Both the position numbers and the translations under genes were made by a program. This document shows, one piece after another, positions 20,632 through 21,068 of a stretch of DNA of 64,000 nucleotides. The first letter of the stretch is position 1. Each line of letters begins with the position of its first letter. The stretch comes from Eledone cirrhosa (taxonomy: Eukaryota): contig OZ024742.1 of assembly GCA_964016885.1 (NCBI GenBank), forward strand, positions 201,810,001 to 201,874,000, read 5' to 3'. The notes under the pieces were generated by a model. The model did not search any database. It was not told the DNA's origin and worked only from the letters and a program-made list of their open reading frames with translations.

Positions 20632-21068
20632 AATAATATATAAGATCAAAAGATGGTTAAAAGAGTTCCATGTATTTTATTATGCGCATTTCAAAAACAA
20701 ATATCATCATGCAATAACATTTGCGTTTTCGTCAGATAAAAGAGGGAGACATGATATGAAGGTTAAAACACACTTGTGAATAGTGCAGTTTTAAATCAAC
20801 ATATCAACATATGTTGATTTAAAACTGCACTATTCACAAGTGTGTTTTTTAACCTTCATATCATGTCTCCCTATTTTATCTGACGAAAACGCAAATGTTA
20901 TTGTATGATGATATTTGGTTTTGAAATGCGCATAATAAAATACATGGAACTTTTTTAACCATATTTTGATCTTATATATTATTTATGCTCCAGTCCTACA
21001 AACTGTAGAGTGCTACTTATCCGATATCTGCATTGCTTTATTGTACTACAATAAAACTCACCTCCTAC
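20632..21068 (+). mobile_element. Fold-back micro-element with HHR, arms 20632-20803 / 20808-20983, tail 20984-21068
   Basis: Near-perfect palindrome; same family as 28657-28872 and 45532-45745. Confidence 0.9.
20872..20942 (+). ncRNA. Minimal type I hammerhead ribozyme motif
   Basis: tattttat CTGACGA aaacgcaaatgttatt..gatatttggtttt GAAA tgcgca TA ataaaata: 8-bp stem I, palindromic stem III. Confidence 0.85.

What the first reader, a model, noticed from the sequence alone, without database searches (positions are those of the whole stretch)
20632..21068. Three copies share the same hairpin apex: a built-in fold-back site upstream of the ribozyme
Seen: copies at 28657 and 45532 have only a short (~45-bp arm) hairpin, aaggttaaaa..aatcaacat / atgttgatt..ttaacctt, preceded by the same upstream sequence (..caacaaggaaaacacac) and followed by the HHR. 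The copy at 20632 turns at the same apex, but its left arm continues as a mirror of the whole HHR arm and it has a tail. Inference: the fold-back point is not random truncation. The element encodes a hairpin where first-strand cDNA self-primes and copies itself back, which would explain how the palindromic insertions arise.
Basis: partly seen in the sequence, partly recalled or inferred. Interest (0 to 1): 0.75.

Follow-up and report, generated by a model that had tools for sequence, protein, structure and literature searches.

The report
Penelope palindromes meet at RNA start
These three repeats are short stubs of a Penelope-like jumping gene with over ten thousand copies in this genome, and their shared turning point is not a hairpin built into the element but likely the capped start of its RNA, where two copies made from opposite sides of one DNA cut would run off and be joined head to head.

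Summary
The three copies, the shared apex and the hammerhead motif are real. The apex is a sharp genome-wide breakpoint: 1,513 apex-to-apex palindromes. But the element encodes no 45-bp hairpin. The 'shared upstream' is another repeat, and its junction to the hairpin occurs only twice in the genome, both times in this window. None of 31 copies with native upstream has the hairpin. The parent is a Penelope-like element with Hydra-clade motifs. Truncated arms begin at one A, often after a non-native G: 2,356 genome-wide, only 46 of them in native context; 13 of 24 ends versus 6 of 47 elsewhere. In LINE-1 such a G marks the RNA cap. In 38 of 67 inverted insertions (one spurious) the inverted arm reaches further 5' than the direct arm, so it is no self-copy. 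Best reading: two target-primed cDNAs run off the capped RNA start. No RNA data were available. The scan reached this reading earlier for other families in this genome.

The parts
20632..20804 (-). Inverted, tail-less arm of the pLTR stub (element +1 to about +175); outer end runs into (TA)n
   Evidence: same outer end in 56 of 67 inverted arms
20805..20808 (.). Junction CAAC; the C at 20805 is an extra G before +1 of the inverted arm (inferred cap copy)
   Evidence: the same junction occurs at G000:C1:116567327
20809..20984 (+). Direct arm, starting at element +1 (the A of TC|ATATG in the parent; inferred transcription start)
20872..20942 (+). Minimal type I hammerhead motif: CTGACGA core at 20880, long stem II, palindromic stem III; predicted cut after 20934
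   Evidence: pattern scan, fold; architecture as in PMC4209133 (passages); cleavage untested
20985..21068 (+). PLE tail (~82 nt), from the 5' region of the parent upstream of the ATG; followed by (AT)n
   Evidence: 11,638 exact tail-end matches; continues into the ORF in 3 of 90 loci
27866..28649 (-). Repeat family U (two tandem pieces, 548-nt period); the supposed shared upstream, not part of this element
28650..28702 (-). 7-nt filler plus 46-nt inverted stub (+1 to about +46), a local junction
   Evidence: junction found twice genome-wide
28706..28868 (+). Extra G (28706) and tail-less direct arm from +1 (28707) with hammerhead motif, ending in (TA)n
45451..45575 (-). Second copy of the U piece, filler and stub; 2 mismatches to 28576-28696 in the first ~120 nt
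45574..45742 (+). Tail-less direct arm with hammerhead motif; 8 mismatches to the 28707 arm and different nearest relatives

Best explanation
The three copies are 5'-truncated pseudo-LTR stubs of a Penelope-like retrotransposon with Hydra-clade motifs, and their common apex is likely the capped first base of the element's RNA, where two cDNAs, likely primed from the two ends of one cut in (TA)n DNA, would run off the template and be joined head to head. Shown: a full-length parent exists, with +1 lying 343 nt before the ATG; arms end at two fixed 3' positions (about +175 and +260); 5' ends pile up at +1, often after a non-native G; the two arms are truncated independently but share subfamily markers; joints are ATAT or AT overlaps, a single C/G, or short re-copies of the first bases. 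Known from a distant relative in vitro: the enzyme cuts and extends both DNA strands and starts at two internal RNA sites (PMC11167929). Inferred: RNA polymerase II starts at TC|A and caps it; priming in the 5' pLTR of one RNA gives 175- and 260-nt run-off cDNAs, with a C added opposite the cap; priming in the 3' pLTR gives the long arms; repair joins the two ends. The short hairpins at 28657 and 45532 are one local junction between a clipped inverted arm and repeat U, copied once 17 kb away.
For: Base before +1, genome-wide: G 2,356, A/T 2,458, C 7,801, of which 5,321 are native read-through. Only 46 of the G cases sit in native context. In the sample, G is the first non-native base at 13 of 24 ends at +1 versus 6 of 47 other ends, Fisher p = 4e-4. 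Of the first 50 apex-to-apex loci listed, 26 are overlaps and 20 of the other 24 carry the G at +1 on at least one arm (hand count). In short-read contigs, all 8 shown joints leaving 28702 with letters between start with that base (12 of 23 rows shown). The inverted arm extends further 5' in 38 of 67, equally far in 18, less far in 11; it ends at +160..180 in 56 of 67. Full-length direct copies also end there (L153, L155). A second family shares TTC|ATATG and the pile-up. The extra G is described for full-length LINE-1 (PMC11702581, passage) and a start site inside the pLTR for Penelope and Chlamys (PMC2377424, PMC8557442, passages).
Against: No RNA evidence: the start site and cap are inferred from DNA alone. 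Arms of one insertion match at diagnostic sites (12 of 659 differ, versus 35% between loci), which self-copying also predicts; twin priming then needs the same RNA stretch to be copied twice, or two RNAs from one source. The tail-less end is TA-rich, so it could be a repair joint rather than a priming site. Some G's also fit microhomology to the partner arm. The G signal is weaker in the second family: 579 of 5,816 arms, 2 of the 30 inspected. Two of 90 loci (L107, L113) have short stubs that snap-back explains well. Deletion after insertion could make some of the asymmetry.
Confidence: 0.72

Rival explanations
1. Snap-back at the RNA end: one cDNA runs off +1, folds on its last bases and copies itself back to the TA-rich site at about +175. 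The apex is still the RNA start, but only one priming event occurs.
For: Arms identical at diagnostic sites; 18 of 67 symmetric; short stubs in L107, L113 and this window; 11 of 67 have the shorter inverted arm expected of an internal fold-back.
Against: 38 of 67 inverted arms hold sequence absent from the direct arm, 8 of them reaching +1 while the tail arm is short. Symmetric palindromes away from +1 are rare (2 of the 18: L137, L144). The commonest joint (22 of 50) needs a G opposite the native -1 C, which an RNA starting at +1 lacks.
Confidence: 0.15
2. One reading: the element encodes a 45-bp hairpin upstream of the ribozyme that programs fold-back.
For: Two window copies show the hairpin with the same upstream sequence.
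Against: The junction occurs twice in 3.0 Gb; the upstream is another repeat; 0 of 31 native copies and none of the three full-length parents carry it.
Confidence: 0.02
3. Published idea: self-priming on an antisense template (PMC3846280), or inheritance from a few palindromic master copies.
For: Head-to-head orientation; recurring junction types.
Against: The extra G sits on the sense 5' end; junctions vary from locus to locus; apex palindromes occur in several subfamilies that also include long copies.
Confidence: 0.05
4. The fixed end is an RNA processing site, a pause site or a preferred ATAT microhomology, not a capped start.
For: +1 begins ATAT, which matches the (TA)n target and itself.
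Against: Other ATAT sites in the unit are not hot spots; this does not explain the G; the hammerhead cut lies 124 nt away and at most 87 exact-match arms could start there.
Confidence: 0.06

Closest known systems
Hydra clade of C-terminal EN+ Penelope-like elements (Craig et al. 2021, PMC8557442; passages and section 11 read)
   Same: Single ORF, RT then GIY-YIG; DKT, CxCX5C linker, CxxC and CxH motifs; hammerhead in the pLTR; (TA)n targets; inverted 5'-truncated copy; one-sided tail.
   Different: RWK reads RWI; ORF to next pLTR spans about 3.7 kb with a ~1.1-kb 3' UTR (Hydra mostly under 3 kb); tail ~82 nt versus 30-40; no fixed apex or extra G in the parts read.
Poseidon PAc of Anolis (Frangieh et al. 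2024, PMC11167929; parts 1-2 of 4 read)
   Same: Two internal RT start sites bracketing the tail; both strands cut and extended in AT-rich DNA; uncleaved RNA is the template.
   Different: Other clade; PAc starts inside the ORF without homology to the target, whereas here both ends lie before the ATG in TA-rich sequence; palindromes and capped run-off were not addressed in the parts read.
Penelope elements of Adineta vaga (Arkhipova et al. 2013, PMC3846280; passages)
   Same: Head-to-head inverted pLTRs with palindromes at the junction; optional tail.
   Different: Interpreted there as self-priming on an antisense template; the statistics here favour a sense, capped template primed twice.
LINE-1 twin priming and cap-derived extra G (PMC11702581; passages)
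   Same: Second RT primed from the other target end; microhomology joint; extra G at complete 5' ends.
   Different: In LINE-1 the two pieces usually do not overlap (recalled) and the second priming site varies; here both sites are fixed and the arms overlap.

Membership tests
EN+ Penelope-like elements | Single ORF with RT and C-terminal GIY-YIG endonuclease | tested here: met
   775- and 808-aa stop-free frames in L153 and L154 with RT-like FDI, YRDD and endonuclease-like LIY..YFG motifs read by eye; Pfam gave no significant hit
EN+ Penelope-like elements | Partial tandem pLTRs, inverted 5'-truncated copies, optional tail | tested here: met
EN+ Penelope-like elements | Hammerhead motif in the pLTR | tested here: met
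   pattern and fold; activity untested; no Rfam hit shown
Hydra clade | DKT in place of DKG; CxCX5C linker; CxxC and CxH around the EN E and N | tested here: met
   SDKT, CNCRIKNKC, CNLC..EK and CLH, against section 11 of PMC8557442
Hydra clade | RWK motif | tested here: inconclusive
   reads RLRWI
Hydra clade | (TA)n insertion preference | tested here: met
   87 of 90 tail ends run into TA-rich repeat, the other 3 into the element's own 5' region
Hydra clade | Placement in an RT tree with Hydra references | not tested
   no reference proteins fetched; the paper's supplements were not opened
Neptune clade | CX2-5CxxC linker and CCHH motif in the EN | tested here: not met
   the linker is CxCX5C; my first label, Neptune, was withdrawn
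   0 of 31; junction twice genome-wide
Capped RNA polymerase II start | Capped 5' ends of RNA mapped at +1 | not testable with these tools
   no RNA run listed; only the indirect G signature

The most novel reading that the evidence does not exclude
Penelope-like elements make a retrovirus-like 'strong-stop' cDNA. Internal priming in the 5' pLTR runs off the cap from both target ends, and failure to jump to the 3' pLTR leaves palindromes that map the start site to the base. Successful jumps would explain tails and partial tandems, and cap-C realignment would re-copy the first bases in a telomerase-like stutter.
Probability: 0.35. Interest if true: 0.75.

Novelty: new variant of a known kind. 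Interest (0 to 1): 0.52.

Why it matters
How Penelope-like elements form head-to-head repeats, and which strand they copy, is stated as open in the papers read (PMC3846280, PMC8557442, PMC11167929). Here thousands of insertions give base-level predictions: start site, cap copy, and two priming sites. These favour a capped sense RNA primed twice over the published antisense self-priming idea, and can be tested with an existing in vitro system.

Tried and rejected
The repeat finder was swamped by microsatellites. Rfam gave only sub-threshold miRNA-like hairpin matches. Pfam found nothing significant for the ORF. No RNA holder was listed, which is no evidence on expression. No listed contig spanned 28380-28880, so that locus was not confirmed by short reads. 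My idea that the arms come from two unrelated RNAs was rejected; the arm difference at GCG[C/G]AT that suggested it was query bias (1 G in 146 covered arms; about 0.2% of depth). A first chaining script was misled by repeats in the references and replaced; BLAST still overshoots +1 by 12-14 nt in L098, L104, L128, L132 and L133, which were left out of the apex counts. The label Neptune was rejected. A pile-up at the hammerhead cut was not seen in the sample (1 end at +125); one search has no control position, so no enrichment is claimed. The predicted tail fold is unremarkable (z -0.12). Eight paper searches listed no paper tying PLE palindrome apexes to a capped start; the library lacks most subscription journals. 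PMC12910113 and bioRxiv 10.64898/2026.07.22.740005 (term look-ups only) added nothing. A sequence look-up among earlier findings was blank.

Full report
Observation. The three loci are as described. 20632-20983 is a palindrome between (TA)n tracts, with a tail on the right arm only. 28657 and 45532 have ~45-bp inverted stubs, the same 81-nt left neighbour, and a hammerhead-like motif: stem I, CTGA(C/T)GA, long stem II, GAAA, and a palindromic stem III. That layout resembles the dimer-type PLE hammerheads of PMC4209133 (passages). The window lies in a 3.0-Gb genome.

The shared upstream is not part of the element. It is a separate repeat, here called U, with 1,634 candidates. None of the 29 other U loci fetched continues into the hairpin. 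The U-hairpin junction, allowing one mismatch, occurs twice in the genome, at these two window positions. The two copies differ at 2 positions in the first ~120 nt but at 8 in the right arm, and the right arms have different nearest relatives. So one local junction was copied once, either by templating onto a fresh insertion or by duplication plus conversion; I cannot tell which.

The parent element. A tail motif has 11,638 exact matches. I examined 90 of the first 100 listed, all on contig C1; a few pairs belong to one insertion. Three continue past the tail into a full-length element with an RT plus GIY-YIG frame of up to 808 aa. Its DKT, CxCX5C, CxxC and CxH motifs match the Hydra clade as defined in section 11 of PMC8557442; the lead came from earlier notes, the motifs were read by eye, and no tree was built. 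The window unit is the pLTR and tail of this element; the apex base (+1) lies 343 nt before the ATG. Upstream of +1 the parent has 3' UTR ending TTTTC; 0 of 31 such copies have an inverted arm there.

The apex is a true hot spot. 21 of 90 direct arms and 22 of 67 adjacent inverted arms start within about 3 nt of +1 (conservative, five overshoots excluded). Genome-wide, 12,615 arms match the exact +1 motif and 5,321 of them read through into native upstream sequence; the remainder includes some mutated native copies. 1,513 loci are apex-to-apex palindromes.

It carries a cap-like mark. The native base before +1 is C, yet 2,356 arms have G, only 46 of them in native context. G is the first non-native base at 13 of 24 ends at +1 and at 6 of 47 other ends (p = 4e-4). 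Of the first 50 apex-to-apex loci, 22 overlap by ATAT, 4 by AT, and 20 of the other 24 have the G on at least one arm (hand count). Short-read contigs show the same base at their joints, so it is not an assembly artefact. The window has it at 20805 and 28706. An extra G marks the cap in full-length LINE-1 insertions (PMC11702581, passage), and Penelope and Chlamys start transcription inside the pLTR. A second family (window 9860-10297) has the same TTC|ATATG context; 13 of 30 inspected arms clearly continue into native sequence and most others begin at that A, but G is rarer, 579 of 5,816. Caveat: some G's also fit microhomology to the partner arm.

The arms are made separately. The inverted arm reaches further 5' than the direct arm in 38 of 67 insertions (L107 is spurious), often by hundreds of bases; it is equal in 18 and shorter in 11. 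In 8 the inverted arm reaches +1 while the tail arm is short. Inverted arms end at +160..180 in 56 of 67, and two full-length direct copies end there too. This fits two fixed priming sites bracketing the tail, as shown in vitro for PAc, which also cuts and extends both strands (PMC11167929). Against this: the arms share subfamily markers (12 of 659 sites differ, versus 35% between loci), so both come from one source or were later homogenised, and self-copying predicts the same. Short stubs in L107 and L113 fit occasional snap-back.

Mechanism. Likely: a capped sense RNA starts at +1; both cut ends of a (TA)n target prime internally near +175 and +260; in the 5' pLTR both cDNAs run off the cap, and repair joins them. 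The RT mostly reads through the hammerhead site: 1 sampled end lies at the predicted cut and at most 87 exact-match arms genome-wide could. The start site, cap and double priming are inferred; no RNA run was available.

Novelty. The insertion structure is known for PLEs. The published explanation in the passages read is antisense self-priming (PMC3846280). Eight searches listed no paper with the capped-start reading; supplements were not opened and may bear on clade and junction details. Earlier unreviewed notes of this scan reached the same reading for other families in this genome; I had formed it before looking, and they are not independent support. Verdict: observation confirmed, encoded hairpin refuted, fixed apex real and likely the RNA start. 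Interest 0.52.

Noticed in passing
window 9860-10297: Palindrome of a second hammerhead-bearing family with the same TTC|ATATG start context, 5,816 arms, 579 with G before +1, and a one-sided tail.
   Followed up: partly
window 6110-6498, 19487-19828, 9411-9789, 28919-29144, 38688-38901, 48494-48571, 14226-15510: Further palindromes; 6110 and 19487 carry hammerhead-like cores, and 6110 turns in a TTTTC|A context.
   Followed up: partly
window 27866-28649: Repeat U appears as a head-to-tail unit with a 548-nt period and a fixed end at (TA)n in many copies; possibly a non-autonomous PLE derivative.
   Followed up: partly
window 20798-20815; L010, L124, L169, L173, L174: Junctions that repeat the first 7-8 bases of the element after the extra G, as if the cap-copied C realigned on an internal G and the start was copied again.
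   Followed up: no
window 28827: The GCGGAT variant in hammerhead stem III sat on one arm only in most palindromes but is about 0.2% of short-read depth; a recurrent change or a systematic assembly error.
   Followed up: partly
window 477-4495: Large inverted arrangement with broken RT and endonuclease-like frames of a related PLE.
   Followed up: no
window 21430-26313, 40023-41987, 55794-63525: Broken non-LTR retrotransposon frames of other kinds.
   Followed up: no
L153 4662-5280 (reverse orientation): The parent's 3' UTR holds a 111-nt tandem repeat that differs between subfamilies.
   Followed up: no
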